DNA of 64,000 bases. Source: an uncultured delta proteobacterium (GTDB taxonomy: Bacteria; Desulfobacterota; Binatia; Binatales; Binataceae). The stretch is taken from the NCBI GenBank assembly GCA_963842085.1, contig CAWJET010000001.1, forward strand, positions 1,600,001 to 1,664,000, read 5' to 3'. Made by a program: the position numbers and the translations under genes. Positions 7,933-61,211 of this stretch are shown one piece after another; within the stretch, counting starts at the first letter, position 1, and each line of letters starts with the position of its first letter. The notes below the pieces were generated by a model that saw only the letters and a list, made by a program, of their open reading frames with translations, made no database searches and was not told the DNA's origin.

Positions 7933-9459
7933 CTACACCACGGCGCCGGTCAAGGTGAGGCGAATACGCGCAACCCACTCGGCCCGCTGTGATTTTGTCA
8001 ACAAAATCAAAGCCGCCACTAACCAATAGCCGCCCGCCGCGGCCGACATTTGCCACCCCATGGTAAACCATTCCGCCGCACCAAAGCGCGCAGCGAAGAC
8101 GTAGACAGATATTCCGTAGGGCACTCCGAGCAGTACCGGTTGAATGAAGGCGAGAATCAACTCCCAAGGCTTGGTATTAAACAGTTGCGCCAGCAATAGA
8201 GGAAGCCACCAGATACTGACGGCACAAAACGCGACTAGCGAGCCCAACACTGGGCCGATTATTCCGAATTTATAGGTAAATGCGATGCTCGCGGAAAGAT
8301 TCAGGATAGTTTGTGATGAAGTAATGGGTAAGATGGAACGCACCTGTCCGGTGCTGTTCACCACCCAGGTCCACAGCGAGAAAGTCGCAAGTAACAAAGC
8401 GTTGACCGCTGCAATTATAGTAAGCGCGTTGCCCCCGTAGCGCGAAGATCCAACCCAGCGCTCGACGAAAAAGTGATTATAGGCCACGACTGGTACAAGA
8501 CCGCCAACTGCTAAGATTGCGACCAGGTGGGTCAACTCGATTAGTCGAGCGTTGAACTGCTGATTCTTTCCCTGGTTGTGCAGTTCGGTCAGGGCGGCCC
8601 AACTCGCTCCGCCGACGGCCTGCAATTCCCGCGTCGCAATGCTGGTAAGTCTTTGCGTGATGAAGAACGGCACCACCACGGCCGGTGACAATACGTAGGC
8701 GATGATGATGTTGTCGGTGAGGTAGCTGAATCGGCCGCAGAGATTGAACACCAACCCCGGCCAGCGCAGTTCCGAGATCGCGGCTTGCGTCGTCTTGTCA
8801 GAGGCCGCCCGGATAGCGCCTTTGAGCAGGCCGGGCAGTCGCGCCTTTTCGGCGATCGCAAGGGCCAGATTGAAGACTACCGTACCGAGCAGCATCGCGA
8901 TCGCTTGACCCGTGATGCCCCAGCCAAGCCACGCCAGGACAATTGAGAGACCGGTCACGAGCGCCCACTGCACCACCAGCAGAGTGTTTATCCAATAGCC
9001 GCGCTGCTCGACCTGAGCGAGAATGCGAAGCGCCGAAAACGGCAGTAGTGAGGTGCCAAGCACCCCGATCAGCCATGCAACCCTAAGGTCCTTCACGTAG
9101 TGGGTGCCAACCGGTATCAGATGGGCGATCACTGCCGTGGCCGCGCCGCCTACCGCGATCATCAGTAGTGCCACGCGCCAGTAGAGGCGCAGCGCTGCGA
9201 ACAGGACCTGGCGCACTGCGCCCTCATCGCCGTTGCTGCAGGCACGTGCGAGCAGGGCCTGAATTGCCTCACCAATTCCGAACTCCAAAAGCGCCAGGTA
9301 TCCGGCCCACTCGGCAACGGTCTCAAACGCTCCGAATCGCTCGTCGCCGAGCCAGTGCAAAATCAGCGGCGTCGCGACCATCGCCACCAGCAACGTGACA
9401 ATGGTCAGAAATTCCTGACTCAGGAACGTCCAGATCGATCTTTGAGTTCTCCGGCTCAT
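7933..9459 (-). CDS. wzx: Wzx-like oligosaccharide flippase (MOP superfamily)
   Basis: Many TM segments; ATPLILHWLGDERFG and TDNIIIAYVL motifs; EPS context. Confidence 0.85.
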   Translation of the reverse strand: MSRRTQRSIWTFLSQEFLTIVTLLVAMVATPLILHWLGDERFGAFETVAEWAGYLALLEFGIGEAIQALLARACSNGDEGAVRQVLFAALRLYWRVALLMIAVGGAATAVIAHLIPVGTHYVKDLRVAWLIGVLGTSLLPFSALRILAQVEQRGYWINTLLVVQWALVTGLSIVLAWLGWGITGQAIAMLLGTVVFNLALAIAEKARLPGLLKGAIRAASDKTTQAAISELRWPGLVFNLCGRFSYLTDNIIIAYVLSPAVVVPFFITQRLTSIATRELQAVGGASWAALTELHNQGKNQQFNARLIELTHLVAILAVGGLVPVVAYNHFFVERWVGSSRYGGNALTIIAAVNALLLATFSLWTWVVNSTGQVRSILPITSSQTILNLSASIAFTYKFGIIGPVLGSLVAFCAVSIWWLPLLLAQLFNTKPWELILAFIQPVLLGVPYGISVYVFAARFGAAEWFTMGWQMSAAAGGYWLVAALILLTKSQRAEWVARIRLTLTGAVV

Positions 9460-40290: not shown

Positions 40291-40515
40291 CTGAAAAAAC
40301 CGATGGGCCAAGCGTGATCGTTTTTTCCCTGCCCGATGCAACGAGGTGCAATAGTCTGGCTCAAGATCGGCCACGAAGTCGGTTGTCGAAATCACTTGCG
40401 ACTGTGCCACAGACGTCGTAATCGCGAAAGACTTGCGAATTCAGCGCATCTGTCTCAACCCGCTTGAATCATAACTTAGATTAAGCGAATAAAACAGCCT
40501 ACGTATAACACTAGC

Positions 40516-40614
40516 ATGGGAGGAAACCGATAGAATTTCAAATCAGCAGGTCTCGTTTCAGCCGGGTCCGGCAGTATCAACGGCTTCTGAGCAGGTCAGG
40601 CCACTGCAGGAGCA
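40516..40614 (+). pseudogene. Inverted, broken 5' copy of the gene at 60735-61211
   Basis: Aligns to the reverse complement of 61117-61211 (QVSFQPG.AVST..EQVRPLQE). Confidence 0.9.
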
Positions 40615-40628
40615 TCACCGGCGATGTC

Positions 40629-40826
40629 CTGAAACCCCGGAAAAGAGTGTCAGTTGCTGTCAGTACTCAACGGTTGCGAATCACCATTGCCGATTCGTGG
40701 AATCTTTCCGGTCTTTTCCATGGGAAAATTCGGCCAAAGTGCGCCAGAAGGTCGGCTTTCACAGGTGTTGTGCTGTAGGCTAGTGACGATCACTGACAGC
40801 AACTGACGGTCTTTTCCGGGGTTCAG
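40629..40826. repeat. ~35-bp inverted repeat (arms 40629-40664 and 40792-40826); candidate origin or element end
   Basis: ctgaaaccccggaaaagagtgtcagttgctgtcagt vs reverse complement ctgaaccccggaaaagaccgtcagttgctgtcagt. Confidence 0.88.
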
Positions 40827-42489
40827 AAGCAGAGACCAGGGAGACTAGGCGTCTGCCGCGGATATCGGCGCGGCTGAACTGAATGTCGATTCCGACTGCG
40901 CGCAGGTTGCTTGCCATGCGCCGCAGCGCGCTGCCGAGCGCACTCGGCGCCTTGGGCCAGCGCACCGAGCGGCGCACGCCTTCGCTCTTCATGCGGTTGA
41001 GCCGGTCATACAGTTCTGCGACTGTCCCGCTAAAGCCCTCGTTGGCCAGTTCGGCCACCGGTTCGTACAGCAGCGACGACTCAAGTGCCAGGTTGTGTGT
41101 CTCGGTGCGGTTGGACTGGTAGGCAGTCATGGCCTCGCCTGGTTTCATTCCGAGGCTCTCTTCGCACGCCTTTACCCAGAGCGCGAAGTCGGCCATCCGC
41201 GGCGGCTGCTCGAGCGTGACGTTGGGCAGATTCCCAAGTCCGGCCACAACGGCATCGAGCAGGGCGCCGAGGATCCGCGGCCTTACCTCTTCGAATTCGC
41301 GCCAGAACTGCGCCTCGTCGCGGCGCATCTCGGGCTTCATGTCGAGGAACTCCACGATCACCGCGCGATCCAGAAAATCGGGCCGCGCGGCACCCAGGTC
41401 GGGAATCGCATTGAACACAATGGGACGGGTAGCGTCGAAGGTCGCTTCGTCATGATCGCTATAGAGTTCCCGGCCACCGAAACCGCCGCCGGTGGCTAGT
41501 CGGCAAGCTGCGTCGGCGAGTTCCTCTGGCAGGTGGCTCAAGTTATCGAAGCATACGATCCACGAATTCCTTGCCGCCGCGGTCAGATCGCGAACTTCAC
41601 GGGGTACGCCCCGCAGTGCCCCGGTGCGCGGGTCGATCAGCGCGCTCATTATTCTGCACGCGGTCGTCTTGCCAGCTCCCTGCTCACCCTTGGCGACCAG
41701 GATAGGGCAGGGCACGCCCGGACGTAGCGCCGCGACCAGAAAGGCCTTGATCAGCGTCCAGCCCTGGTGGTCGACGTTCAGGAAGCGGCGCAGTTCGTCG
41801 AGACCGCCGCCCCGCTCGGGTGGGGGCAGCGGGCGCGAACCACGTGTCCGATGAAATCTCGGCGGCGGTCGGTCCACTATCCGCCAACCGTCGGCGTCGA
41901 TTTCGATCGCCCGCCAAGCGCGATCGCACAGGTCGAGATAGAGTTTCTGCCGATGATTCGCGACCCGGATATTGATGGGAGACTCCTCGCCGTCAAAAAG
42001 GGCCTTGGCCTCGAACAGGTCCAGCGCGGCGCGGATGGCTTGTGCGCCCGGGCTGTTGCCGGTCTCCCGGTAATAGGTTCGCAACAGGAAGAGTTGGAAC
42101 GGGCGGGAGCGGATCGGGTGATTCTCGAAGTGCCCATCGACCCGAACCGAAGCCCAGCCGTGCTGGTCGGGGTCGTGAAAGAACTCGATTCCAGAATCGA
42201 GCACAAGTCCAATCAGTCTGTCCGCAGCGGACCCGCCGTCGCCGCGCTCCAAGGGCAGCGGAGCGCCGAGCATATGCTCGATCAGGTCGGCTTTTTCGTA
42301 CTTCTCCAGAATCCTGCGCCAGTGTTGCCACGTGAGCGGATCCCCGCGCCTGACCGCTGCGAAGGAGAGTACCGCCTCGGTCGAGACCAGCCGCTCGGGC
42401 TCTTCTGCGACTAGCGGCTCAAGTTCGCGCAGGAACAACAGAGCCAGCTCGACCGCGATGGTGCGGGATGATTCGCCTGCCGCACTCAT
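40780..42489 (-). CDS. P-loop ATPase of mobile-element primase-helicase type, with no recognisable primase domain
   Basis: Walker A GEQGAGKTT, Walker B-like IVCFDNLS, RLATGGGF..RELY, PDFLDR; ATG 42489 directly after the HNH stop. Confidence 0.8.
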   Translation of the reverse strand: MSAAGESSRTIAVELALLFLRELEPLVAEEPERLVSTEAVLSFAAVRRGDPLTWQHWRRILEKYEKADLIEHMLGAPLPLERGDGGSAADRLIGLVLDSGIEFFHDPDQHGWASVRVDGHFENHPIRSRPFQLFLLRTYYRETGNSPGAQAIRAALDLFEAKALFDGEESPINIRVANHRQKLYLDLCDRAWRAIEIDADGWRIVDRPPPRFHRTRGSRPLPPPERGGGLDELRRFLNVDHQGWTLIKAFLVAALRPGVPCPILVAKGEQGAGKTTACRIMSALIDPRTGALRGVPREVRDLTAAARNSWIVCFDNLSHLPEELADAACRLATGGGFGGRELYSDHDEATFDATRPIVFNAIPDLGAARPDFLDRAVIVEFLDMKPEMRRDEAQFWREFEEVRPRILGALLDAVVAGLGNLPNVTLEQPPRMADFALWVKACEESLGMKPGEAMTAYQSNRTETHNLALESSLLYEPVAELANEGFSGTVAELYDRLNRMKSEGVRRSVRWPKAPSALGSALRRMASNLRAVGIDIQFSRADIRGRRLVSLVSASEPRKRPSVAVSDRH

Positions 42490-42491
42490 CT

Positions 42492-42989
42492 CTAGAATCT
42501 GGGAACCAGCTTTCTGGACTTGGCCCGGTTGCAGCGTCGGCACAGGGTTTGAAGATTCGATTCTTCGGTCTTGCCGCCCTTGCTGACCGGGACAATGTGA
42601 TCCATTTCCAGCAGGATCGCCCTCCGGCACTTTCGACATCGCCCGCCGTCGCGCACCAGCACTGTCGCCCGCATGCTGTCCGGTACGCGACGGTTCGCCA
42701 CGCGGTCCTGCCAGCTCGGCCTTTCCACCGCATCGAAGTCGACGAAGTCTGCGAACGCGCTCAAATCTAAAGGCTCGGTGGCGCCGATCAGACACTCCAA
42801 CTTTACGGGATTGTTGGGCAGGAGATTGTTCATGCGCGCCGAGAGCAGCAGCAGACAGATCAGGTGAGCCTTGCGGGCGTCGGGAAGCTGACGGAAACGG
42901 ACGTCGTTCAACAGATCGTAGGGCAGCCTGATCTCTCTGCGGGTGCGCTCGAACTGGCGGAAATTGTGAAAGCCGAAGAATTCCTGCAT
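42492..42989 (-). CDS. HNH endonuclease with an N-terminal phage replication-protein-like domain
   Basis: RDGGRCRKC...EMDHIVPVSKGG...NLQTLCRRCNRAK. Confidence 0.9.
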   Translation of the reverse strand: MQEFFGFHNFRQFERTRREIRLPYDLLNDVRFRQLPDARKAHLICLLLLSARMNNLLPNNPVKLECLIGATEPLDLSAFADFVDFDAVERPSWQDRVANRRVPDSMRATVLVRDGGRCRKCRRAILLEMDHIVPVSKGGKTEESNLQTLCRRCNRAKSRKLVPRF

Positions 42990-42996
42990 GACTGGT

Positions 42997-43875
42997 CTAT
43001 TGCTGGTTGGCCTCGATGAAGTTGATCTTTACGACCGCGACCGGCGGTTTTCGGTAGGGTTCGAGGTTGACGCCGCGGAGCTCCGGCACAGCAGCGTAAT
43101 CGACCGCGCCCTTGCGCGAGCTCTTCAGGACTTCGACGCCACAGCCATAAGTCCGCCGCGCCGTCGCCATGCACCGGAGCATTGCGCGCAGTCTTTGCTC
43201 CTCGGCTGCTGCGTTCTCCAGCCGGAGCCTGACTTCACGGTAACGCAGCGCGGCGTGACGCCATTTTGGCTCCGCGCTCAGATCCAGTTCCTCGTTGGCC
43301 AATTCGGGCCAGCGGTTTTCCTGCACCAGCTGCCAGAACGCGGCCTCTGCCTCTACCAGACGCTTCGCGTATTCCCGGTCGGGGCGTATTTCGACCAAGA
43401 CTCCGTCGGTCCCGTGGAAGGACCAGTAATGCGCCTGCTCTGCTCCGGAGACCTTCAGTTGATGCTGTAGTTGCGCATAGTACTGGGAGGGGATGCGACC
43501 TTGCTGTGCTGATAAACGATCTCCGAATCTGAGCGGGCACTTAATCTCCAGCAGTATGGAACCGTCGAAGCTGAGACCATCCAACGACGCCCGCATCCAC
43601 TCGAACTCCCCGTGGACCAGACACAGTGGCTCCATCTGGATTCCTGTTTGTCGCTCGTACGCCTTACGCGCGAAGCGCTCCATTTCGCGACCGCGTCGCG
43701 CTGCTGGACCCGCCGCAGCTTCCTGCATCAGCCCGGTTTTTATCGACCACAGCATTCTCGGGGTCTTGAACGCAGTCTCGCCCATGATCACCGGAGCGTC
43801 GCTGGCTCCAATCCCCTGCGTGCGCCAACGATGCCACTCGGGGGTGTTCTGATGCAGCGGCTCAATCCGGGGCAT
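42997..43875 (-). CDS. YqaJ / lambda-exonuclease family 5'-3' exonuclease
   Basis: WHRWRTQGIGASD, ASLDG, LEIKCP, YYAQLQHQL. Confidence 0.95.
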   Translation of the reverse strand: MPRIEPLHQNTPEWHRWRTQGIGASDAPVIMGETAFKTPRMLWSIKTGLMQEAAAGPAARRGREMERFARKAYERQTGIQMEPLCLVHGEFEWMRASLDGLSFDGSILLEIKCPLRFGDRLSAQQGRIPSQYYAQLQHQLKVSGAEQAHYWSFHGTDGVLVEIRPDREYAKRLVEAEAAFWQLVQENRWPELANEELDLSAEPKWRHAALRYREVRLRLENAAAEEQRLRAMLRCMATARRTYGCGVEVLKSSRKGAVDYAAVPELRGVNLEPYRKPPVAVVKINFIEANQQ

Positions 43876-44971
43876 GAACCGTCTCCTGATTGCCGCGTTT
43901 GGCCAGTTTGCGATTGAGCACTTCGACCGCGCGCCGGTAGGTCGTTTCGGTCATTTCGCCCAGTGAAGCGACCTTGTAGTAGGCCAGCACCCGTTCGAGA
44001 TCAGTATTGGTGTCGTTGATCAGTTGCTCGAGTTCGCGAACCTCTTCGGCATTGATCGGGCGAGGGGAATTGGGCGTGGCGCAGCGACCATCCGCCCGTT
44101 CGTCTTCCGGGTCGTCGCCGGTGGCCAACAGAAACGATTGCAGCAGCGCGTACTTCAACGCCCCAGTCATCGCCTTGTAGGGCGCCTTGTCGCCCGGATC
44201 GAGTCCCTGGCCCGCGACCTTGGCGATCACTTCTTCGCCGCTGTCGACGTCGGCGAAGGTGTAGGCCATCACGACCCGCGCCATACGCGTGGTCTCGCCG
44301 CGACCCGTCGCCGACTCGTATTCGATATTCTCGAGGCACGGGATCACGACCACGCCCAGCTCGGAGAGGAGGTCGCCGACCGAGCCGGCGATGTCGGCGG
44401 CGGTAACGTAACTGTAGTTGAAACGCTCGTTGTGACCGCGCTTCTGGACGTAGCCGATGCGGCGGCGAACTTCGGCGAGCTTCTGCCGGAGGTTCAGCCG
44501 CACCGGATCTTCGGGAGCGGCGCCGTTGAAAGTCGAGGCGCTCGTCTCGACGGCAGCGGGTGCTTCCGCCGGGCGCGCGTCGGGCTTTGCAGTCACGACC
44601 TGCAACGCTTGCTGCTTACTCCTGCTGCTTCGATTCTTTTTCAAGAGCCGCTTGGCGCCGCTTCTTTTTCCGTTCGCCTGCCCTTCCTTCAGCGAAGCCT
44701 CGAGCAGCACCTCGAGCTCGGTCTTCTCCCGCTCCGCCAGATGCTCGACCGCGATCGGCTTCGTCTCGCCCTTGTCCGCTAGCTGATAGACCTTTCCTTC
44801 TTCGTCCACGTAAATTCCCTCCTGTTGATTGATGCTCGTTACCGGTCGGCCGAGCAGTATATGGACTTCTTCGTGGTTTGCTGTACTGACCGGAAACCAC
44901 TTTTTTGGTTCGGTTCCGCTTTCGAGGAGCACACAAAGAAATCGGTCGCGATAGTCCAAGCTAGCCTTCAT
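43862..44971 (-). CDS. ERF-family single-strand annealing protein with an N-terminal ~100-aa unknown domain
   Basis: VQKRGHN..FNYSY, DPGDKAPYKAMTGALKYALLQSF...DDPE. Confidence 0.9.
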   Translation of the reverse strand: MKASLDYRDRFLCVLLESGTEPKKWFPVSTANHEEVHILLGRPVTSINQQEGIYVDEEGKVYQLADKGETKPIAVEHLAEREKTELEVLLEASLKEGQANGKRSGAKRLLKKNRSSRSKQQALQVVTAKPDARPAEAPAAVETSASTFNGAAPEDPVRLNLRQKLAEVRRRIGYVQKRGHNERFNYSYVTAADIAGSVGDLLSELGVVVIPCLENIEYESATGRGETTRMARVVMAYTFADVDSGEEVIAKVAGQGLDPGDKAPYKAMTGALKYALLQSFLLATGDDPEDERADGRCATPNSPRPINAEEVRELEQLINDTNTDLERVLAYYKVASLGEMTETTYRRAVEVLNRKLAKRGNQETVHAPD

Positions 44972-45076
44972 TTCGCCTCCGGCGTGATGCGCCTTCTTCC
45001 TCGACGATTGGCGTCGTTTCCGAATCCTGTTCTTACGCTCTGCTATATTACTAGAAGGTACACTACGAAGGAATAC

Positions 45077-45670
45077 CTAAAAGGAATATGGTGCAACGAA
45101 GATCGGCGGAGGGGAGAACGTGGCCAAGGTCAGGCTGTGGGGTTTCCGTTGCGAGCGGTGCGGGCACAAATGGTTGCCGCGAGAAACCGGCAAAGAACCG
45201 CGAGTTTGTCCCCGCTGTAAATCTCCGTACTGGAACCGGCCCAGGAGGAATCCGAAACCGGCCGGCAGATGATACTCTGTTGGATGAACAACGGTCACTG
45301 CGCTTCGGCCGTTGTTTCGCATCTCCCGATGCGCCCCCCTCGAATCTGCGTTTGGTTCGTGCTCCTTCCCGCCTTTCAACGAAGCCTCCAGTAGCACCTC
45401 GAGTTCGGTTTTCTCCCTCCCCGGAAGATGCTCGACCGCTATTGGCTTCGTCTCGCCCTTGTCCGCCAGCTGAAAACCGTTCCCTTCTTCGTCCACGTAA
45501 ATTCCCTCCTGCAGATTGACGCTCGTGACCGGTCGGCCGTGGAGCGTTTGGGCTTCGGCGTAGTCCGCCTTGCGGACCGGAAGCCACTTCGGCGGCGCCC
45601 CGGTCGTACCGTCCTTTTCTTCGACGACATAGAGAAAATCGTCCCTGTACTCGAGGGTTGTCTTCATCAT
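45077..45670 (-). CDS. Stand-alone paralog of the ERF N-terminal domain (3' part doubtful)
   Basis: GGAGG RBS; shares GRPVTS.N.QEGIYVDEEG..QLADKGETKPIAVEHL..REKTELEVLLEASLK with the ERF gene. Confidence 0.75.
   Translation of the reverse strand: MMKTTLEYRDDFLYVVEEKDGTTGAPPKWLPVRKADYAEAQTLHGRPVTSVNLQEGIYVDEEGNGFQLADKGETKPIAVEHLPGREKTELEVLLEASLKGGKEHEPNADSRGAHREMRNNGRSAVTVVHPTEYHLPAGFGFLLGRFQYGDLQRGQTRGSLPVSRGNHLCPHRSQRKPHSLTLATFSPPPIFVAPYSF
45120..45272 (+). CDS. 50-aa zinc-ribbon protein (absent from the ORF track)
   Basis: GGAGGGGAG RBS and GTG start; MAKVRLWGFRCERCGHKWLPRETGKEPRVCPRCKSPYWNRPRRNPKPAGR. Confidence 0.85.
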   Translation: MAKVRLWGFRCERCGHKWLPRETGKEPRVCPRCKSPYWNRPRRNPKPAGR

Positions 45671-45979
45671 GCTGCCTCCATTGCGAATTTATTGAACGCT
45701 GGCTGTTCTCGGCGGCGCCAACTCTAATTACTCAAAGTTCAGCTGAGTTTCTCGTGGCTCTTCTTTAGTCTTGTCTGAACCATCGCACCGATTTGCGCCG
45801 GGTAATGTTAAATATATAGGACATTCGGCTTTGAATCAAGTGGCGATTTACGGTAGATTTCATGAATGAATTTGGGTATGAGCAACTGTGGCGCACGCCA
45901 CGGCGATATTAATTGTCCTATGTATGCTACTATTTCAGTTTCTGGAAGTTCAAAGCAGCATTTGAGTATCATCGAAGTG

Positions 45980-46264
45980 ATGCCTAAACTGCCCTCCATG
46001 GGTCGGAAGAAAATCTCTGCTCGACCTACAGGTAAACGGGCGGAGAAGCCCAATATGGTGGCTGCCGCTGTCGAGCTCGCTGGCGGCGCGGCCGCAGTGG
46101 GTAAGCTATGCGGAGTTCGCCGGCAGTCCGTCTATTGGTGGATTAAAGAATGGAAGGTGGAGAGGCTGGTCGATGCCCTGAAGCTATCGCGTGCTTCAGG
46201 AATCCCAGTTGAAAAGTTTGCTGGCGAGATCGTCGACGCGGAACAGCTCAAGGAAATAAAATGA
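45980..46264 (+). CDS. Cro-like HTH protein
   Basis: AVELAGGAAAVGKLCGVRRQSVYWW...ALKLSRASGIPVE; divergent from the ERF operon; start uncertain. Confidence 0.75.
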   Translation: MPKLPSMGRKKISARPTGKRAEKPNMVAAAVELAGGAAAVGKLCGVRRQSVYWWIKEWKVERLVDALKLSRASGIPVEKFAGEIVDAEQLKEIK

Positions 46265-46394
46265 CCATTGCCCGCCGATTCCTCGCCAGGTCACTTTGCT
46301 GACAAGCGTTCCAGGACCTTCGGTCGCAACTGTTACGTATATCCGTGTAGTAACACGTCGTGGTCGCGTGCGGTTGTGGATCTAGAGGCCTTAG

Positions 46395-47571
46395 GGAACC
46401 TCTGCACAGGTCGTCATACAGCGGCAGTTCGATATAGTAATGAGAGCTAAGAGCAGGAACGGCAGCAGCGCGTTGGGGTTGATCGTTGCTGGGAAGCGAT
46501 TAGGAGCATTGGGGAGCTGCTCGATCTTCTTCACAACCCGCAACTGGTCCCGACCGGGATCAACCGATACCGGACCCGGTAGAGATTGGCCAGCGCGAAC
46601 ATGGTCTGCGCCCGAGCCAGATTCTTGGCCAGCCCGCGATATCTCACCTTGCTGAAGCCCCACAACTGCTTGAGCACGCGGAAGGCATGCTCGCCGCAAG
46701 CGCGGGTGCGCGAACGCACCCGGTTGATCATCCGCCAGCGCTCGCTCAACGGGTGCCGGGGGGTAGGACGGCGATTGATCCGATAATGTATTCCCCGCGA
46801 CTCAAGGAACCTGCGGTCGTCTTCTTTCCAATACGCCTGGTCGCCGAACACCTCGCTTTCGTACCCGTGCAGCAGCTCCGGCAGCTGGGTGACATCGGCG
46901 ACCGCGGCGTCGGTCGCTCTTACGCTGTGGACGATGCCGCGCTTGTCTGCACCGATGTGCAGTTTCATCCCGAAGTGCCAGTTCCTGCCCTTGCGAGTCT
47001 GCTTCATCTCAGGGTCGCGCGTCCCACTGGCGTTCTTGGTGGGAACTGGGCGCTGCGATGATGGTCGCGTCCACAATCGTTCCCGAGCGCAGCAACAGGC
47101 CGCGGGCCTCGAGCAGGCCGCCGATCGCGTCGAAGATCGCTTTGGTAAGGTCGTGCCTTTCCAGCAGATGGCGAAAGCGCAGAATGGTGGTCTCATCCGG
47201 CACCACGTCGTCGCCCAGCTCCACCCGCGCAAACCGGCGCATCGACTCGCTGTCGTAGATCGCGTCCTCGGCCTGCGGGTCGGAGAGATTGAACCACTGC
47301 TGCAGGAAGTAGATGCGCAGCATCTTCTCCAGCCCCAGCGGCTGGCGGCCGTTGCCCGCTGTGGGATAGTGCGGCTCGATCAGCCGCAGCAGCCGCGCCC
47401 AAGGGATCACCGCGTCCATCTCGGCCAGAAACCGCTCGCGCCGGGTCACCTTGCCCTTCGCACTCCACGCCACCGAAGCAAACGTCTGCTGGCTACCCAT
47501 CACCGCACCTCCGCATCCGTCGATCGTCTGGTTCCTTTGTACACCAATCGATCAACTTGTGCAGAGGTTCC
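46395..47571 (-). mobile_element. IS5-family insertion sequence, 1177 bp
   Basis: Terminal IRs GGAACCTCTGCACA / TGTGCAGAGGTTCC; TTAG duplicated at 46391-46394 and 47572-47575. Confidence 0.96.
46531..47503 (-). pseudogene. IS5 transposase with a +1 frameshift near 47042
   Basis: PDETTILRFR, VDATIIAAPSS / TKNASG.RDPEM, HFGMKLHIG split between two frames. Confidence 0.9.
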
Positions 47572-47773
47572 TTAGCGGCGAGTCCTTTCCATGTAAGGGT
47601 TCGGGCAAAAGCGATTGCCAGGCGCACGGCGGTGGTCCATCGCCGCTCGTGCGGAACGTTAAGAGCGCCCTCGAGGAGCATCCGATCTTCCCTTGCGCTC
47701 GAAAATGACTTCCAGATAGTCGCCTTCGGCGTCGCATCAGACCTTTACGTCTTTGCGCTAGATACCAGCCTCT

Positions 47774-48079
47774 TCAGGATTTCGCTCGTAGCCGGCGCTT
47801 CCAATAATCCGGCCGGCGGCGCAGGTGCATGACGGCGATCACAGACAGTTCCTCCGGACCGGACTGATACAAAATCGCAAACGGGAAGCGCTGGACGAGC
47901 CGGCGCCGGATCGTTCCCGTAAACAAGCTCCCGGCTTCGGGATTGGCGACGATCTGCGCCAACGTGTGCTCCACTTGCCGGATGAAATCCCCACCCAGGC
48001 CGCTGGCGCGCGCTTCGTAAAATTTGGTTGATTCGATGAGTTCACGTTCGCACAAGGGGTGAAAAACGACCCTGGTCAC
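47774..48079 (-). CDS. RelE/ParE-family toxin
   Basis: VVFHP...RFPFAILY...VIAVMHLRRRPDYW; GTG overlaps the antitoxin stop. Confidence 0.9.
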   Translation of the reverse strand: MTRVVFHPLCERELIESTKFYEARASGLGGDFIRQVEHTLAQIVANPEAGSLFTGTIRRRLVQRFPFAILYQSGPEELSVIAVMHLRRRPDYWKRRLRAKS

Positions 48080-48309
48080 CGAAGCGCCGCACGCGCCTTC
48101 CTGAGCGCTTTCTCGGCAGGAATTCCCTTGAGCCTGCCGCTGGCGATCTCTTCCGCGCGCCGCTCTGCCTCGGCAGCCCATAATCTTTCGGCATCCGGCT
48201 CGGCAGGTTCCTCCTCCAGGCTTGCGAGCAATCGTTCGGCCAGCCGCGCGCGCGAACGAGCGGGAAGCCTCATGGCCTGATCTTCAAGCTTCTTGAGTAC
48301 AGCGGGCAT
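48076..48309 (-). CDS. Addiction-module antitoxin
   Basis: LPARSRARLAERLLASL...WAAEAERRAEEI; GGAGG RBS. Confidence 0.9.
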   Translation of the reverse strand: MPAVLKKLEDQAMRLPARSRARLAERLLASLEEEPAEPDAERLWAAEAERRAEEIASGRLKGIPAEKALRKARAALR

Positions 48310-48686
48310 GGTTCACCTCCTCGTTAATTGTTCGGGTTGATCATACCAGGCTTCGATGCGGCTGCCGCACATCGAACCCCATCTTGCAACTGCTTGCCGG
48401 ACCGCCTTACCGGCGGTTCGCTCGCCATATTCATGCTGACGTTTTTCGCAACCTTCTTGGAGAGGTCGCGCGTCCGCATGATCTCCGCGCGAATCTCGCC
48501 GGCCGAGACCCCCCCATGCCGCTGGCGGGCCGCGCCGAGCCATGTCGGCGCGGTGCAGGTCGCCGCCATAACGTGGATCAACCGGCCGACTCCGAACAGC
48601 CCTCAGCAAACCTCGCGCGCGGCCGCATGCCGAGAATTGATTTGTTGGAGAATGGCGCACGATCACAACTTGATTTCAGCAGCCAA

Positions 48687-49361
48687 CTATATTCTTCCCC
48701 CTCGCCAAATCACCTTACCCACCAAGATTCGATCAACCTCCGTCGCCTCCAGTTCCTCCGAAATTCCCGAACCGGTAACCACGAAACCCCGCTTGAGCCC
48801 AACTTGAACGCGTCTTATGGCCAGCCCCGTCGGTGCGGAAAATACATACAACCCCTCACCACGCGGCAATCTCTTGCCCGCGGACCGGTCCACCAATAAC
48901 AAATCCTGCGTTCTGATTTCGGTTGGAAGATCTCGGTCGGCCTCCAAAAGGAAGAGCTGCTCGGGTTCGCGGATACCGAGCGCCCGTTCGAGCCACGAGC
49001 GGCTGAACGGAAGAAGTGCGCGAATCTGCTCCATGTGCAGCGCCGCATGGATGTCGCGCAGTTCGACCATGGCCACATCGGCGAACGTCGCGCCCGGCGG
49101 CTGTCCGGCGGCTCTCATTTCACCCTGGCCCGTTGCCAGCCAGTCGACCGACACGTTGGCGGCGCGCGCGAGCTTAATCAGAATGTCGCTCCGCGGAGGA
49201 AGTTCTTGACGCGCATATTGCTGCAGGGTTGACTCCGGAACCCCCGAGGCCTTGGCTAGCCGGTACCGGCTGCCGAACTCCTTGACGAGCAGCGCGAAAC
49301 GAGCGGCAAACGAGCCGCGCTTTTGTTTGCCCCGACTACGACGTCGGCCGTTGTTTGACAT
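48687..49361 (-). CDS. cI/XRE-like repressor with a degenerate S24 domain
   Basis: LAKASGVPESTLQQY...VSVDWLATGQG; DLLLVD, GLYVF, LVGKVIW. Confidence 0.85.
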   Translation of the reverse strand: MSNNGRRRSRGKQKRGSFAARFALLVKEFGSRYRLAKASGVPESTLQQYARQELPPRSDILIKLARAANVSVDWLATGQGEMRAAGQPPGATFADVAMVELRDIHAALHMEQIRALLPFSRSWLERALGIREPEQLFLLEADRDLPTEIRTQDLLLVDRSAGKRLPRGEGLYVFSAPTGLAIRRVQVGLKRGFVVTGSGISEELEATEVDRILVGKVIWRGGRI

Positions 49362-49716: not shown

Positions 49717-50700
49717 ATGGTCGTAGGTGAACCGCCAACAGGGGAAAGTCAATCTCCGCTAACCAAGGACGCCGATACTTCGCCAGCACCGCGGCGCACC
49801 TCCGTCAAGCAAATCGAGGCCAACCGGAGAAACGCGCTTCACTCAACCGGACCGACCACGCCTGAGGGTAAGCGGGCCTCGCGACTCAACGCCCTGACGC
49901 ACGGCTTGCGGGCGAAGAAGGTGATAATTCCCGGGGAGGAAAATCCCGCAGAGCTGGAAGCGTTATTAAGAGAACTCTTTGAGGATTGGAAGCCTGAGGG
50001 TCACACGGAGCGCCACCTGGTCGAGCAAATTGGACTGGCGGAATGGCGGCTGCGGCGGGTGCACCGCGCCGAACTCGGCGAAACTCGAACGCAAATGTCG
50101 AGCACAATGGTGAGCAATGCCAAAGCCGAGATCGATCACGCGTTTAGGCATTTCCCCGAGCGCGTGCCGCAAATCTTGAGAAAAAGCAGCGCAGGGATCC
50201 CTTATCTGCGGGACGCAATCGACGAGGCCGTCTACGAACTCGAAAAGGAGGGTACAGTTTCCGAGGATAGCTGCGACCGGCTCGAGGAAGTATTTGGAGA
50301 CGAACTACAAAGTCCCGCCTCGGCGCTCAGGTTTTGGTTTCTTGGGGAAATCCCGGAGGTGTTAAAGGAGGCTTTGGATAGTGTCGGCGAGCCAACGGCT
50401 ACGGCCGACAAGGGCGATTCCGACACGAAGGAAATTGCACGCAATTACTTGGGGACGATGCTCAAGGATCTGGATCGCCAGGAACGAAAGCTGCGTAAAC
50501 AGGAAAGAATCGCTCTTGAGATCGCCCGACAACGGCTGAGCATTCCCCAAGGCCTCGAACTCGAACGCATCCAGCGCTACGAGACCGCAATTAAGCGCGA
50601 AATGCGCCGTGACATCGATCAACTCGAGCGTCTGCAGCGCCGGCGGATAGGTGAGCCGCTGCCGCCGACCGTGAACGTGAACGTGTCGAAAGACGAATGA
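49717..50700 (+). CDS. Conserved-type hypothetical helical protein
   Basis: TSVKQIEANRRNALHSTGPTTPEGKRASRLNALTHGL and IQRYETAI motifs of a common uncharacterised family. Confidence 0.8.
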   Translation: MVVGEPPTGESQSPLTKDADTSPAPRRTSVKQIEANRRNALHSTGPTTPEGKRASRLNALTHGLRAKKVIIPGEENPAELEALLRELFEDWKPEGHTERHLVEQIGLAEWRLRRVHRAELGETRTQMSSTMVSNAKAEIDHAFRHFPERVPQILRKSSAGIPYLRDAIDEAVYELEKEGTVSEDSCDRLEEVFGDELQSPASALRFWFLGEIPEVLKEALDSVGEPTATADKGDSDTKEIARNYLGTMLKDLDRQERKLRKQERIALEIARQRLSIPQGLELERIQRYETAIKREMRRDIDQLERLQRRRIGEPLPPTVNVNVSKDE

Positions 50701-51077
50701 GTCTGCGCTCGCACAACCTGCTGGCACACGAGAAATCGAAACCTCCGTCGCATAGGCCGACTGATGGGCGTGCCGAAGAAGGGTTCGGTTGCGCCGAAGA
50801 TAACAGAACGTTGTTTGATTTAGATGCCGACGACGAGCGCAAAGGGCCGGCGAAGAATTCTCTGCTTTTTGCCGAACGAACCCATTTCCAATGCAAATGA
50901 GCGAGCCCTAGCCAAAGTGGCGCAGGATATTGTCGCTATACGAGAAGACAGCCAGCTTGTTTGTGCGCCAACGCGCAGCGGCAAGGGACCGTTGGCAGGC
51001 CGTCCTCCGTTTGAGCGGCCCGAACCTGGCTTGAAACTTTTCTGGCAACCTGCAATCATCTTACTGGCAATCTTACC

Positions 51078-51332
51078 ATGACTCAGACGACGAAATTGTC
51101 TACCAAGGGCCAGGTCGTTCTTCCCAAATCGCTCAGGACGTCCCGTCGATGGAAGCCCGGCACTGAATTCATCATCCAGGACCGGGAGGAGGGCATTTTG
51201 CTCAAGCCGAAAACCGGGGGCGCGTCGCGGACTTGGGAGTCGATCATCGGCTGCCTCTCTTATGCTGGTTCGCGCAAGAGCGTAAGGGAAATGGATGAGG
51301 CGGTGGCGGCTGAGGCACGGTCGCGCAAATGA
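51078..51332 (+). CDS. AbrB/MazE-fold antitoxin
   Basis: TKLSTKGQVVLPKSLR...WKPG. Confidence 0.92.
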   Translation: MTQTTKLSTKGQVVLPKSLRTSRRWKPGTEFIIQDREEGILLKPKTGGASRTWESIIGCLSYAGSRKSVREMDEAVAAEARSRK

Positions 51333-51724
51333 TGACGGCGCTCGATACGAATGTGCTTGTCCGCATCATAACCAACGACGATAGAGCTCAGGCGACTCGG
51401 GCCGCGCGGTTTCTGCGTGAGCAGGAGAGAGTTTTTGTCTCAAAGACAGTTCTACTCGAACTGGAGTGGGTTCTACGGAGCGCCTATAAGGTCGGGCCAA
51501 ATGCTATTATTTCCGCATTCCGCGGCGTCCTGAGTGTGTTCAATGTCGAAGTTGAAGACGAAGCGGTAGCGAGGCAAGCCATCGAATGGTACGAGAAGGG
51601 CATGGACTTTGCGGACGCCCTGCACGTCGCTTCCGCCGGTCGCAAGCGAAAGTTCGCTACATTTGACAATCGGTTGCGTCAGAAAGTTCGGCGTCTCGGG
51701 CTGGGTGAATTAGCAGAAATCTGA
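51329..51724 (+). CDS. vapC: VapC PIN-domain toxin
   Basis: LDTNVLVR, ELEWVL, DFADALH, TFD. Confidence 0.93.
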   Translation: MMTALDTNVLVRIITNDDRAQATRAARFLREQERVFVSKTVLLELEWVLRSAYKVGPNAIISAFRGVLSVFNVEVEDEAVARQAIEWYEKGMDFADALHVASAGRKRKFATFDNRLRQKVRRLGLGELAEI

Positions 51725-60734: not shown

Positions 60735-61211
60735 TTACTGGGGTAAACCTTCTGGCTTTCGCTCGAAACTCTGCGCGAGCGTCGAGAATTCTTCGCGAAG
60801 GGTCTTGGCCGGCTCAAATGCAGTAGCAAGATGCGCGAGTCGATCCTGAAGCGCAGCCGCCGGCTCGAGCGCGGCGACAAGTTGGCTCAAACTTTCGCCG
60901 AACGCCGCGGAAAGCTGGTCAAGCTCGCGATCCAGATCCTGCAGGGGCGCGAACTGCTTCAGGACCTGTCGAAGCTGGTCCTGGAAATTGTGCATCGGCT
61001 CGAGCACCTTGGCCAGCTCTTTGATCTTCACCTCGAACTCGCGGAGAGGCTCAAACACATTTGCCAGCACGGAAAGCTGGTGCATCGGTTCCAGAATGAC
61101 CGCGATCTGAGCGAGCTGTTCTTGCAGTGGCCTGACCTGCTCGAAAACCGTCGATACCGCCAGACCCGGCTGAAACGAAACCTGCTCATTTGACATTCCA
61201 ATTCCTCCCAT
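60735..61211 (-). CDS. Proline-punctuated amphipathic helical-repeat protein, copy 2
   Basis: Recurrent L/F-E-P units; paralog of 59147-59656. Confidence 0.8.
   Translation of the reverse strand: MGGIGMSNEQVSFQPGLAVSTVFEQVRPLQEQLAQIAVILEPMHQLSVLANVFEPLREFEVKIKELAKVLEPMHNFQDQLRQVLKQFAPLQDLDRELDQLSAAFGESLSQLVAALEPAAALQDRLAHLATAFEPAKTLREEFSTLAQSFERKPEGLPQ

What the first reader, a model, noticed from the sequence alone, without database searches (positions are those of the whole stretch)
40629..46264. Compact cut-resect-anneal-replicate module (X-ERF, YqaJ, Rep-HNH, helicase-like ATPase, terminal IR) with no integrase or virion genes
Seen: four tightly coupled minus-strand genes (overlapping or gaps of 2-7 bp): ERF annealase, YqaJ exonuclease, HNH fusion and P-loop ATPase. 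The last ends inside a ~35-bp inverted repeat. A Cro-like gene is divergent. No integrase, terminase, capsid or T4SS gene lies within about 18 kb to the right or 40 kb to the left. Known: exonuclease plus SSAP pairs are the lambda Red/RecET logic, and HNH enzymes nick or cleave DNA. Inference: this may be a self-contained element or domesticated module that moves or repairs by recombination-dependent replication rather than by an integrase. It is also a candidate recombineering pair for a high-GC lineage. A decayed prophage early region remains the simpler alternative.
Basis: partly seen in the sequence, partly recalled or inferred. Interest (0 to 1): 0.8.

Follow-up and report, generated by a model that had tools for sequence, protein, structure and literature searches.

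The report
Multi-copy replication–recombination cassette without integrase
A 4.7-kb block of phage-type genes (DNA annealing protein, exonuclease, HNH nuclease, replication helicase and its own replication origin) recurs in several diverged copies per genome in soil Binataceae bacteria, with no integrase or virus-particle genes found near any copy examined, so it looks like the core of a small satellite-like island rather than one decayed prophage.

Summary
Four coupled minus-strand genes lie at 40780-44971: X-ERF, YqaJ, HNH and a P-loop ATPase. A 32-nt inverted repeat straddles the end of the ATPase gene.

- The ATPase is a D5-like SF3 replicative helicase. Its fold matches ASFV PrimPol, the SaPI5 primase-helicase and NrS-1. 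Relatives are fused to Prim-Pol, RepB primase or PolA and sit on small plasmids.
- The "terminal IR" is an iteron origin. Each arm holds a run of GTCAGT repeats, the arms face each other, and they covary between copies. A second iteron type goes with a different helicase C-terminus.
- "Rep" for the HNH N-terminus is not supported.

Distribution: the genome holds 4 copies (85-89% nt identity). At least 15 of 46 other genomes of the genus hold it, often in several copies. dN/dS is 0.13-0.23.

No recombinase gene lay in the flanks of 38 loci, apart from one weak fragment. No TerL or capsid hit lay within 50 kb in 23 genomes.

Best reading (about 0.5): a SaPI-like replicon joined to a Red/RecET-like recombination pair, forming the core of integrase-less, phage-derived islands. 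How it moves is unknown.

The parts
40633..40664 (.). Distal arm of the origin-like inverted iteron array (repeated GTCAGT motifs); homology between copies ends 1-17 bp beyond it
   Evidence: 32-nt arm. Homology of 16 other copies stops at window 40616-40632. 26-32 of 32 positions are complementary in each of 16 copies, and 9 of 32 pairs show compensatory changes.
40665..40791 (.). 127-nt spacer between the arms. It holds a conserved TTTTCC..GGAAAA palindrome and the ATPase stop codon (40780-40782).
   Evidence: alignment of 16 copies.
40792..40823 (.). Proximal arm of the iteron array, inside the last codons of the helicase gene
40780..42489 (-). Rep-type D5-like SF3 helicase, 569 aa, Walker A GEQGAGKT, C-terminal winged-helix-like domain; no primase domain
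   Evidence: No Pfam, PHROG or NCBIfam family. Model pLDDT 84.2. Foldseek: ASFV PrimPol 3.4e-9, SaPI5 primase-helicase 7ola 6e-8, MPXV E5, NrS-1 CTR, D5. Homologues are fused to Prim-Pol+PriCT_1, RepB_primase, NrS-1 HBD or PolA. Homologues sit on 29 plasmids. One phage hit is annotated DNA helicase or primase.
42492..42989 (-). HNH nuclease, 165 aa: N-terminal domain of about 100 aa with no assigned family (possibly winged helix), then a CxxC..DH..N..CxxC HNH domain
   Evidence: C118, C121, D130, H131, N145, C150, C153, N154 invariant in 18 sequences. Z 7.0 to GVE2 phage HNH for aa 100-165; the N-terminus reaches only Z 3.5-3.8 against winged helices; 467 homologues of the N-terminus, the 120 listed all 80% or more identical.
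42997..43875 (-). YqaJ/lambda-exonuclease-family nuclease, 292 aa, with a C-terminal extension of about 110 aa
   Evidence: complex model with ERF.
43862..44971 (-). X-ERF: N-terminal domain of about 100 aa with no known family, a low-complexity linker, the ERF annealase core (aa 162-300) and a C-terminal helix predicted to dock on YqaJ
   Evidence: (phage ERFs match aa 159-356 only).
45120..45272 (+). 50-aa zinc-ribbon protein gene (CxxC-17-CxxC), divergent from the ERF operon. Homology between copies A and D ends at its stop codon.
   Evidence: conserved in 8 loci; substitutions at one codon position: 33 against 10 and 7, and 23 against 7 and 7; Zn_ribbon_8, below cut-off.
45350..45670 (-). 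Remnant of the 5' third of a second, different ERF allele (X' domain) with its own upstream region; the ORF 45077..45670 reads on into the opposite strand of the zinc-ribbon gene
   Evidence: D1, 232 nt, 81%; 82-85% to the ERF 5' ends of L039, L042, L051, L065 and copy C.
45866..46264 (+). Cro-like HTH gene (probable start about 45983)
46392..47574 (-). IS5-family insertion sequence (DUF772 + DDE_Tnp_1 in two frames, 20-nt terminal inverted repeats), inserted between the HTH gene and the repressor operon
   Evidence: I4. Copy C has the HTH and CI genes adjacent with no IS.
47774..48666 (-). Two ORFs of unknown function (47774..48181 and 48313..48666) downstream of the repressor gene
   Evidence: no family.
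48687..49361 (-). CI/LexA-like repressor, 224 aa
   Evidence: Phage_CI_repr, HTH_3; phrog_4, aa 18-220, 1.2e-18; 78% identical to the one beside copy C.
49717..50700 (+). Conserved accessory gene of unknown function, divergent from CI. Relatives lie beside 13 of 38 loci. Homology to other loci ends near 50720-50800.
   Evidence: no family.

Best explanation
The block from about 40404/40618 to 45272 is a self-contained replication-plus-recombination cassette. With a variable regulatory arm (zinc-ribbon gene, Cro-like HTH, CI-like repressor, accessory genes, reaching to about 50.8 kb here), it forms a small phage-derived chromosomal island of Candidatus Binataceae that carries no integrase and no virion genes.

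Shown:
- The ATPase is a D5-like SF3 helicase of the family that serves as the helicase part of primase-helicases of plasmids, satellites and viruses.
- The inverted repeat at its 3' end is made of short direct repeats in two facing arrays.
- The arms covary between copies, and a second repeat type goes with a different helicase C-terminal domain.
- The four genes are under purifying selection, and the cassette is multi-copy and patchily distributed.

Inferred:
- The helicase is a self-loading initiator that binds the iterons through its C-terminal winged helix, as SaPI Rep proteins do, and fires this origin when the CI-type repressor is relieved.
- YqaJ resects DNA ends and ERF anneals the 3' tails, as in Red/RecET. 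The HNH enzyme supplies nicks or breaks. Together these would allow recombination-dependent replication, or recombination with related resident copies.
- Spread between cells most likely needs a helper (phage packaging or another vehicle).
- Spread within a lineage is rare, because co-resident copies are old (dS 0.23-0.70).
For: Function of the parts:
- fold of the ATPase.
- 20,773 cluster representatives at E<=1e-3. Of 9 long homologues scanned, 4 carry Prim-Pol+PriCT_1, RepB_primase, NrS-1 HBD or PolA.
- homologues on small plasmids.
- passages of PMC9371898. SaPI Reps recognise 5-6-nt iterons through a C-terminal winged helix. The iterons lie immediately downstream of rep, at least two on each side, pointing in opposite directions.

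Origin:
- 16 type-I copies; 26-32 of 32 positions complementary; 9 of 32 pairs compensatory. A G-to-T change is present in both iterons of both arms in L039, L060 and L064; L046 shows it too, but with further changes in its proximal arm.
- a second iteron type, CGTCAGC, in 10 loci, again as facing arrays.
- all 13 columns that discriminate the two types lie at aa 474-566; none lies in aa 1-473.

Recombination pair:
- family assignments.
- ipSAE 0.68, best of 3 controls 0.00. That mark was reached by 58 of 80 solved complexes and 2 of 110 mismatched pairs. The runs share at least 23% of their contacts; partner pLDDT is at least 59. The interface joins the YqaJ N-terminal domain to ERF aa 330-351.

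A discrete unit:
- the four copies in G000 share only about 4.2-4.7 kb.
- homology ends at 40616-40632 in 16 loci.
- the other end of the alpha-type unit lies at 45253-45288.

Distribution:
- 10 of 61 family genomes, G000 included, have a match.
- 15 of 46 other genus genomes, with up to 5 cassette-length matches (>1 kb) in one genome.
- same-genome copies pair up, at 88/79 up to 99/99 support.

Selection and integrity:
- dN/dS.
- intact in 24, 29, 23 and 22 of 38 loci for ATPase, HNH, YqaJ and ERF.

No integrase or virion genes.
Against: - No end-to-end definition. The regulatory arm is mosaic, and its outer boundary differs between loci.
- No empty site was found. Same-genus genomes are not syntenic around copies A and C. 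Copy D sits in a 12.7-kb variable stretch that is 1.95 kb in G100.
- No flanking direct repeats.
- No near-identical copy pair, so no sign of recent movement.
- No circular or excised form in four metagenome runs, though these were contigs only.
- Many copies are broken: 9 to 16 of 38 per gene. Copy D's helicase carries a 160-bp IS remnant. Some frameshifts may be long-read assembly errors.
- The close family was not found in IMG/VR by the peptide-pattern scan, so a link to a helper phage is unsupported.
- A TerS gene lies near only 6 of 38 loci.
- The spacer of the origin is not markedly AT-rich (read).
- The recombinase seed search is less sensitive than an HMM search, and only four genomes were searched with PF00589 and PF00239.
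Confidence: 0.5

Rival explanations
1. Each copy is the surviving early region of a decayed temperate prophage (as recET survives in the Rac prophage; recalled). The cassette is simply the most conserved mosaic module of a Binataceae phage group whose other genes have been lost each time.
For: - Phage-type genes and a CI/Cro-like switch.
- Frameshifted, truncated and IS-hit copies.
- Mosaic regulatory arm.
- Fragments of TerS, ArdC-N and N6_Mtase near copy B.
- Remnants of older cassettes beside intact ones.
- More distant helicase relatives (33-41% identity) do sit next to an integrase, and one also next to a TerL, in G012:C16 and C22.
Against: - Independent decay should leave different remnants. 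Here 27 of 34 loci keep the same four genes in order, and 16 loci end at the same few bases after the origin.
- No locus of 38 keeps a recombinase gene, apart from one weak fragment.
- None of 18 PF03354, 16 PF03237 and 2 PF05065 hits in 23 genomes is closer than 51 kb.
- G000 has no PF05065 capsid at all.
- dN/dS of 0.13-0.23 across old paralogues.
- No close relative in 2.9 million IMG/VR contigs by pattern scan or in 50,697 phage records, where one distant hit appears as two records of the same phage.
Confidence: 0.25
2. An integrated, plasmid-like replicon that enters and leaves the chromosome by homologous or single-strand-annealing recombination, using its own HNH/YqaJ/ERF set, chiefly into related resident copies. 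This is an integrase-independent way of life.
For: - The helicase family serves small plasmids.
- Intact cassettes lie next to partial older ones:
  - an ERF 5' remnant upstream in the window;
  - helicase 3' remnants, some with a second distal arm, downstream in L037, L045, L047, L029 and L030.
- Three copies within 50 kb in G027:C2.
- Copy D and L045 lie beside the same conserved gene but in opposite orientation.
- Same-genome copies are each other's nearest relatives.
Against: - No circular contig or junction was seen (contigs only).
- No recent copies.
- The flanks of the four own copies are unrelated, so the first entry into a naive site is unexplained.
- Tandem remnants could also come from local duplication and deletion.
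Confidence: 0.15
3. A domesticated host module (repair, or defence against phages) kept for the cell's benefit and no longer mobile.
For: Purifying selection; no mobility genes; old, stable copies.
Against: - Patchy: 15 of 46 other genus genomes and 10 of 61 family genomes.
- Several redundant copies per genome, many broken.
- Sits in variable regions.
- Own origin and repressor switch.
- No PADLOC family apart from generic HNH matches.
Confidence: 0.08

Closest known systems
SaPI/PICI replicon (Rep or Pri-Rep self-loading SF3 helicase with an iteron origin just 3' of rep)
   Same: - SF3 helicase fold: the SaPI5 primase-helicase 7ola is among the top Foldseek hits.
- Short hexamer iterons in two facing sets, starting at the 3' end of the helicase gene, as described for SaPIs in PMC9371898 (passages read).
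- The C-terminal domain varies with the iteron type.
- A repressor and a divergent regulator stand upstream.
   Different: - No integrase or att sites.
- No primase gene or domain.
- No packaging-interference genes; TerS near only 6 of 38 loci.
- The proximal iterons lie inside the coding sequence.
- The spacer is not clearly AT-rich.
- An ERF/YqaJ/HNH set stands where SaPIs have xis/pri.
- The host is the phylum Binatota; no helper phage is known.
Lambda Red / RecET (Rac prophage) / ERF-type exonuclease-annealase pairs
   Same: - Adjacent, translationally coupled YqaJ-family exonuclease and SSAP.
- The predicted contact, between the exonuclease and the C-terminal part of the annealase, resembles the Exo-Red-beta arrangement (recalled). 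The pass may therefore partly reflect likeness to solved complexes.
   Different: - The ERF carries an extra N-terminal domain of about 100 aa with no match to phage ERFs.
- YqaJ has a C-terminal extension of about 110 aa.
- The pair is locked in one operon with an HNH nuclease and a replicative helicase, and it recurs as a unit.
Primase-helicase (D5-like/Prim-Pol) replicons of small plasmids and integrative elements
   Same: The helicase is 31-51% identical to homologues on plasmids of 12-20 kb and to 600-1000-aa fused proteins. More distant relatives in Binataceae lie next to integrases.
   Different: The primase part is missing here. The protein has only a low-confidence N-terminus of about 85 aa before the D5_N-like domain.
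Early recombination-replication operons of temperate siphophages (SPP1- or lambdoid-type; recalled)
   Same: Gene logic: exonuclease, annealase, origin-binding/helicase functions and an HNH, under a CI/Cro switch.
   Different: No late genes, lysis genes or integrase anywhere near; multi-copy with conserved truncated extent.

Membership tests
PICI/SaPI-type phage satellite | Integrase and att sites at the island ends | tested here: not met
   PF00589 and PF00239 hits lie at least 135 kb from all four copies in G000, and at least 163 kb away in G012, G026 and G027 where they share a contig. Seed phmmer found one weak fragment among 2619 ORFs of 38 loci. No flanking direct repeats.
PICI/SaPI-type phage satellite | Rep helicase-initiator with an iteron origin immediately 3' of rep | tested here: met
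   Fold; facing iteron arrays at the gene's 3' end that covary; C-terminal domain tracks iteron type. Binding itself was not tested.
PICI/SaPI-type phage satellite | Master repressor with a divergent regulator | tested here: met
   CI-like repressor and HTH or zinc-ribbon genes in the window and at copy C. Copy D has neither CI nor the HTH gene.
PICI/SaPI-type phage satellite | Packaging or capsid-redirection genes (terS, ppi, cpm) | tested here: not met
   No PF03592 hit in the window. A TerS cluster lies near 6 of 38 loci, including copy B at 7 kb.
PICI/SaPI-type phage satellite | Helper-phage-induced excision, replication and packaging | not testable with these tools
   Only contig-level metagenome data were available.
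Two-component exonuclease/SSAP recombination system (Red/RecET type) | SSAP of a known family next to a YqaJ/lambda-Exo nuclease in one operon | tested here: met
   PF04404 55.6 bits, PF09588 102.7 bits, 14-bp overlap; conserved in 27 of 34 loci.
Two-component exonuclease/SSAP recombination system (Red/RecET type) | Physical pairing of the two proteins | tested here: met
   Model only: ipSAE 0.68, best of 3 controls 0.00. That mark was reached by 58 of 80 solved and 2 of 110 mismatched pairs. The runs share at least 23% of contacts; partner pLDDT is at least 59. This supports binding but does not show it.
D5-like SF3 helicase | SF3 P-loop core with a D5_N-like domain and a C-terminal winged helix | tested here: met
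   Walker A read from the sequence; model pLDDT 84.2; Foldseek E 3.4e-9 to 1e-6 to ASFV PrimPol, SaPI5 PriRep, MPXV E5, NrS-1 CTR and D5.
D5-like SF3 helicase | Fused or adjacent primase | tested here: not met
   No primase family in the 569-aa protein or in its neighbours; homologues elsewhere carry one.
Complete or defective prophage | Integrase, terminase, portal/capsid, tail and lysis genes nearby | tested here: not met
   Portal, tail and lysis families were not searched.
HNH homing endonuclease element | HNH catalytic motif | tested here: met
   Invariant CxxC, DH, N and CxxC-N residues in 18 sequences; Z 7.0 to the GVE2 HNH.
HNH homing endonuclease element | Insertion in a conserved target, with cassette-free alleles sharing both flanks | tested here: inconclusive
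   No empty allele was found for copies A, C or D. Remnants of related cassettes next to intact ones would fit invasion of resident copies, but they do not show it.
   No Pfam hit at E<=0.05. Only Z 3.5-3.8 to winged helices. Atlas feature scores of 0.82-0.86 to clusters with Lin1244_N or DUF1376 are leads only.

The most novel reading that the evidence does not exclude
The cassette is a new kind of integrase-less mobile replicon. It would be a satellite- or plasmid-like element that carries its own cut-resect-anneal machinery (winged-helix-HNH, YqaJ, X-ERF) together with a self-loading Rep helicase and origin. It would install or replace itself by break-induced, annealing-dependent recombination into related resident copies or hotspots, rather than by site-specific recombination or transposition.
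Probability: 0.15. Interest if true: 0.85.

Novelty: new variant of a known kind. Interest (0 to 1): 0.52.

Why it matters
- It places a SaPI-like Rep/iteron replicon in an uncultured soil phylum (Binatota), far from the Firmicutes and Proteobacteria where such satellites were defined.
- It shows this replicon welded to a complete exonuclease-annealase-HNH set and kept under purifying selection in several copies per genome, without any integrase.
- If the element is active, it raises a testable question: how does a replicating island spread or persist without site-specific recombination?
- It offers a compact set of parts (Rep plus a 190-bp origin; an ERF/YqaJ pair) for genetic tools in high-GC, hard-to-handle lineages.
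- If it is inactive, it is an unusually uniform class of phage-derived relics.

Tried and rejected
- Rfam on 40300-46400, both strands, E<=1: no match.
- I first took the conserved 200 nt upstream of ERF for a structured RNA and ran RNAalifold on it. I dropped this when substitutions proved to follow codon periodicity and a zinc-ribbon ORF appeared.
- IMG/VR pattern scan with the helicase: one pattern match, no relative. The scan finds close relatives only.
- Phage collection: only Microbacterium phage Zeta1847, 31.5% identity.
- PDB sequence search with the helicase: nothing at E<=1.
- PADLOC: only generic HNH/REase matches.
- Pfam and PHROGs found no family for the accessory genes: u49717, u47774, u48313, clusters c12, c16, c17 and c20, and the 176-aa ORF beside copy D.
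- HNH N-terminus: Foldseek and VIA-align gave no clear fold.
- ESM Atlas on the ERF X domain: no usable hit.
- tRNA scan: 0 in the window. Across 36 loci scanned there was 1 tRNA, and it was not at an element end.
- Empty-site searches:
  - Same-genus genomes G029 and G048 match only scattered genes of the window.
  - Genus-wide DNA searches with the surroundings of copies C and D gave no clean cassette-free allele.
  - The surroundings of copy B (L076) were fetched but not searched against the genus.
- Sequencing runs: no RNA holder listed.
- Four runs laid as Logan contigs showed no joint across the cassette and no circular junction. The higher summed depth over the cassette is uninformative, because related copies add up.
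- Sliding-window identity among the four copies: no near-identical tract, so no sign of recent gene conversion.
- The consensus promoter scan did not call the promoter I had guessed upstream of ERF. I make no promoter claim.
- Literature:
  - Searches for 'Binatia'+'prophage' (3 papers, listing only, none relevant), for phage satellites lacking integrase, and for ERF/YqaJ/HNH/helicase elements found no description of this cassette in the listings. These searches cover only the held library.
  - PMC9371898 was read as passages through 'find'.
  - Supplementary files were not opened.
- Portal, tail and lysis families, and relaxases, were not searched.

Full report
**What is in the window**

Four minus-strand genes are tightly coupled:

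| Gene | Coordinates | Size |
|---|---|---|
| X-ERF | 43862..44971 | 369 aa |
| YqaJ | 42997..43875 | 292 aa |
| HNH | 42492..42989 | 165 aa |
| P-loop ATPase | 40780..42489 | 569 aa |

- The ATPase most likely starts at the ATG two bases after the HNH stop.
- Family assignments for ERF, YqaJ and HNH all clear the curated cut-offs.
- The ATPase matches no Pfam, PHROG, NCBIfam or PADLOC family.
- A 32-nt inverted repeat (40633-40664 and 40792-40823, 94% complementary, 127 nt apart) brackets the ATPase stop codon. A 30-nt arm pattern matched 2 places in the window and 0 in 100 shuffles.
- To the right lie, in order:
  - a 50-aa zinc-ribbon gene, 45120..45272 (+), found through codon-periodic substitutions;
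  - a remnant of the 5' third of another ERF allele, 45350-45670;
  - an HTH gene, 45866..46264;
  - an IS5-family element, 46392-47574;
  - two unknown ORFs;
  - a full-length CI-like repressor, 48687..49361 (phrog_4);
  - a divergent accessory gene, 49717..50700;
  - a MazE/PIN pair, 51078..51724.
- HMM searches of the whole genome put no tyrosine or serine recombinase, rve transposase, TerS, TerL, HK97-type capsid, VirB4 or coupling protein inside the window.

**The ATPase is a replicative helicase of the D5-like SF3 kind**

- An exhaustive HMMER search found 20,773 cluster representatives at E<=1e-3. Most are 600-1000 aa, with the match in their C-terminal two thirds.
- Of 9 long homologues scanned, 4 carry a polymerase or primase part at the other end: Prim-Pol+PriCT_1, RepB_primase, the NrS-1 polymerase HBD, or PolA with its exonuclease. 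The other 5 have no Pfam family.
- The AlphaFold model (pLDDT 84.2) matches:
  - ASFV PrimPol (E 3.4e-9);
  - the SaPI5 primase-helicase 7ola (6e-8, TM 0.57 on the target);
  - MPXV E5, the NrS-1 C-terminal region and vaccinia D5.
- Homologues lie on 29 plasmids, among them replicons of 12, 18 and 20 kb.
- The only phage hit is annotated DNA helicase or primase.
- The protein here has no primase part.

**The inverted repeat is best read as an iteron origin**

- In an alignment of 16 copies, each arm is a run of hexamers about 10 bp apart (GATCGTCAGT GATCGTCAGT GACCGTCAGT in most copies), and the two arms face each other.
- Each copy keeps 26-32 of 32 positions complementary, and 9 of 32 pairs show compensatory changes.
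- In L039, L060 and L064 a G-to-T change is present in both iterons of both arms; L046 shows the same change with extra differences in its proximal arm. A site recognised by a protein would change in this concerted way. A hairpin would only need to keep its pairing.
- Ten further loci carry a different repeat (CGTCAGC, 9-bp period, 2-3 copies per arm), again as facing arrays about 90 nt apart.
- By a regex, 23 of 38 loci have the type-I distal arm.
- All 13 alignment columns that discriminate type-I from type-II helicases fall at aa 474-566, the predicted C-terminal winged-helix region. None falls in the first 473 residues.
- This is the arrangement described for SaPI Rep proteins and their origins. 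There, a C-terminal winged helix reads 5-6-nt iterons that lie immediately downstream of rep, with at least two on each side pointing in opposite directions (PMC9371898, passages read).
- Differences from SaPIs: the proximal iterons lie inside the coding sequence, and the spacer is not clearly AT-rich.

**The recombination genes**

- The ERF core (aa 159-356) is 28-41% identical to phage ERFs. The N-terminal X domain matches nothing in the phage collection or the Atlas.
- The HNH domain has invariant zinc-binding and catalytic residues in 18 sequences and resembles the GVE2 phage HNH (Z 7.0).
- The HNH N-terminal 100 aa is confined to this cassette family: 467 homologues, and the 120 listed are all at least 80% identical. 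Its only other signals are weak winged-helix and Lin1244_N/DUF1376 leads.
- A complex model of YqaJ with X-ERF passed:
  - ipSAE 0.68, with the best of 3 controls at 0.00;
  - that mark was reached by 58 of 80 solved and 2 of 110 mismatched pairs;
  - the runs share at least 23% of contacts, and partner pLDDT is at least 59.
- The predicted contact is between the YqaJ N-terminal domain and ERF aa 330-351. This supports a working pair but does not show one, and it may partly reflect likeness to solved exonuclease-annealase complexes (recalled).

**The cassette is a repeated, discrete unit**

- G000 holds four copies:
  - C1:1640620-1645272 (the window, copy A);
  - C1:2522527-2526717 (copy B);
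  - C2:1314997-1319121 (copy C);
  - C2:1438679-1443513 (copy D).
- The copies are 85-89% identical and share only about 4.2-4.7 kb. An HTH gene adds to this in three copies, and a CI gene in two.
- A fifth, solo distal arm lies at C1:1569338-1569606. It carries the same 230-bp flank as the window copy.
- In 16 loci homology stops at window 40616-40632, just past the distal arm.
- In the 'alpha' type, the other end lies at 45253-45288, at or just past the stop of the zinc-ribbon gene.
- The window copy is a hybrid. A 'beta'-type HTH gene, intergenic region and ERF 5' end (like L048, L039, L065 and copy C) are followed by a complete alpha-type cassette (like copy D, L040, L044 and L052).
- Intact cassettes in L037, L045, L047, L029 and L030 are followed by 3' remnants of another helicase gene. 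In L037 and L045 the remnant carries a second distal arm.

**Distribution**

- Names on homologues and record titles place the cassette in Candidatus Binataceae.
- In a sample of 61 family genomes, 10 have a helicase match. About half of these are close cassette-type matches; the rest are distant relatives at 32-45% identity.
- In the genus, 15 of 46 other genomes hold cassette DNA, with up to 5 cassette-length matches (>1 kb) in one genome. The listings were truncated, so this is a lower bound.
- Several of these handles are probably the same assemblies as loci L037-L070, so the two counts are not independent.
- Of the 34 loci fetched from genome contigs, 27 show all four genes in the same order. 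The other 7 are as follows:
  - 2 are cut inside the HNH gene;
  - 2 are cut by contig ends;
  - 2 are helicase fragments only;
  - 1 lacks YqaJ.
- In a helicase tree of 24 intact copies, same-genome copies pair up (support 88/79 to 99/99). The type-II origin copies form one clade (100/99).

**Selection and decay**

- Single-frame intact genes, out of 38 loci: helicase 24, HNH 29, YqaJ 23, ERF 22. Some frameshifts may be assembly errors.
- Median pairwise dN/dS: 0.19, 0.13, 0.17 and 0.23. Among the own copies, dS is 0.23-0.70.
- The copies are therefore old and were kept functional.
- No long near-identical tract links any two own copies.

**No integrase or virion genes**

- In G000 the nearest tyrosine recombinase is 135 kb from any copy and the nearest serine recombinase 171 kb. 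Distances are similar in G012, G026 and G027.
- Phmmer with 23 recombinase seeds against 2619 flank ORFs of 38 loci gave one weak 104-aa fragment in L045.
- In 23 genomes:
  - none of 18 PF03354 hits lies on a cassette contig within 250 kb;
  - the nearest of 16 PF03237 hits are 51, 67, 126 and 139 kb away;
  - the 2 PF05065 hits are on other contigs.
- A TerS gene lies 7 kb from copy B and near 6 of 38 loci in all. In G027:C2, two TerS genes abut a degenerate helicase copy.
- More distant helicase relatives (33-41% identity, one in an 841-aa frame) do sit beside an integrase, and one also beside a TerL. The integrase-less state is thus a trait of this cassette clade, not of the helicase family as a whole.

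**What remains open**

- I could not find an empty site, a target duplication, a circular form or a recent copy.
- Copy D lies in a 12.7-kb variable stretch between a conserved gene and a Tad locus; that stretch is 1.95 kb in G100. L045 has a cassette beside the same conserved gene in the opposite orientation. This points to a hotspot, or to an old insertion followed by rearrangement.

**Verdict**

- The functions of the parts are well supported: a Rep helicase with its origin, and an exonuclease-annealase pair.
- That the block is a discrete, selected, multi-copy unit without integrase or virion genes is also well supported.
- How it moves, whether it still does, and whether it needs a helper are not known.
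- I rate the satellite-like island reading at about 0.5 and independent prophage decay at 0.25. A homology-driven plasmid-like way of life gets 0.15 and domestication 0.08.

Noticed in passing
window 46392-47574: IS5-family element (DUF772 and DDE_Tnp_1 in two overlapping frames, 20-nt terminal inverted repeats). It sits between the HTH gene and the repressor operon. A 98% identical 127-nt end fragment lies at G000:C2:1431833-1431958.
   Followed up: partly
L075 about 8165-8322 (G000:C2:1439165-1439322): The helicase gene of copy D is interrupted by an insert of about 160 bp. The insert consists of the two ends of a 1.4-kb rve-type IS that has full copies at C2:812342-813807, C2:1246543-1248006 and C1:1303272-1304743. 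It is a miniature deletion derivative.
   Followed up: partly
G000:C1:1569338-1569606 (outside the window): Solo distal origin arm with the same 230-bp downstream flank as the window copy (window 40404-40654, 87%). No cassette genes lie within 8 kb. A contig in run X1 also breaks at window 40404.
   Followed up: partly
window 40516-40614 and 61117-61211: A repeat of about 100 nt, also present twice on C2 (1257915-1258012 and 1261383-1261480) at 79-83% identity. Beside it, contigs of three metagenome runs skip 66 bp (40448-40513).
   Followed up: no
window 51078-51724: MazE-type antitoxin and PIN-domain toxin pair just beyond the accessory gene.
   Followed up: no
G000:C2:1271700-1272503: A CI-like gene (52%) and a u49717-like gene (43%) stand as a divergent pair without any cassette. 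This regulatory pair is therefore a module of its own.
   Followed up: no
G012:C16:115191-123831 and G012:C22:32610-35709: Distant relatives of the helicase (33-41% identity, one in an 841-aa frame) lie within a few kb of a tyrosine integrase, and on C16 also of a Terminase_6N gene. These are ordinary integrase-bearing elements of the same helicase family.
   Followed up: partly
G027:C2:38787-91093 (L031-L033): Three cassette copies or remnants lie within about 50 kb. Several HTH genes and two TerS genes (86727-87767) abut a degenerate helicase copy that has two TGA stops.
   Followed up: partly
L075 1-835 and 13537-15594; L045 4927-5744: Copy D and locus L045 lie next to the same conserved gene in two species, but in opposite orientation. 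G100, G102 and G091 have 2-6 kb of other DNA between that gene and the Tad pilus genes. This is a variable hotspot.
   Followed up: partly
loci L037-L070, flanks: Sugar-nucleotide and polysaccharide genes recur beside cassettes: a GalE-like epimerase cluster in 7 loci and an RmlD-like cluster in 5. In the window, mannose-1-phosphate guanylyltransferase and glycosyltransferases lie to the left. The cluster functions were read from the sequences, not scanned.
   Followed up: no
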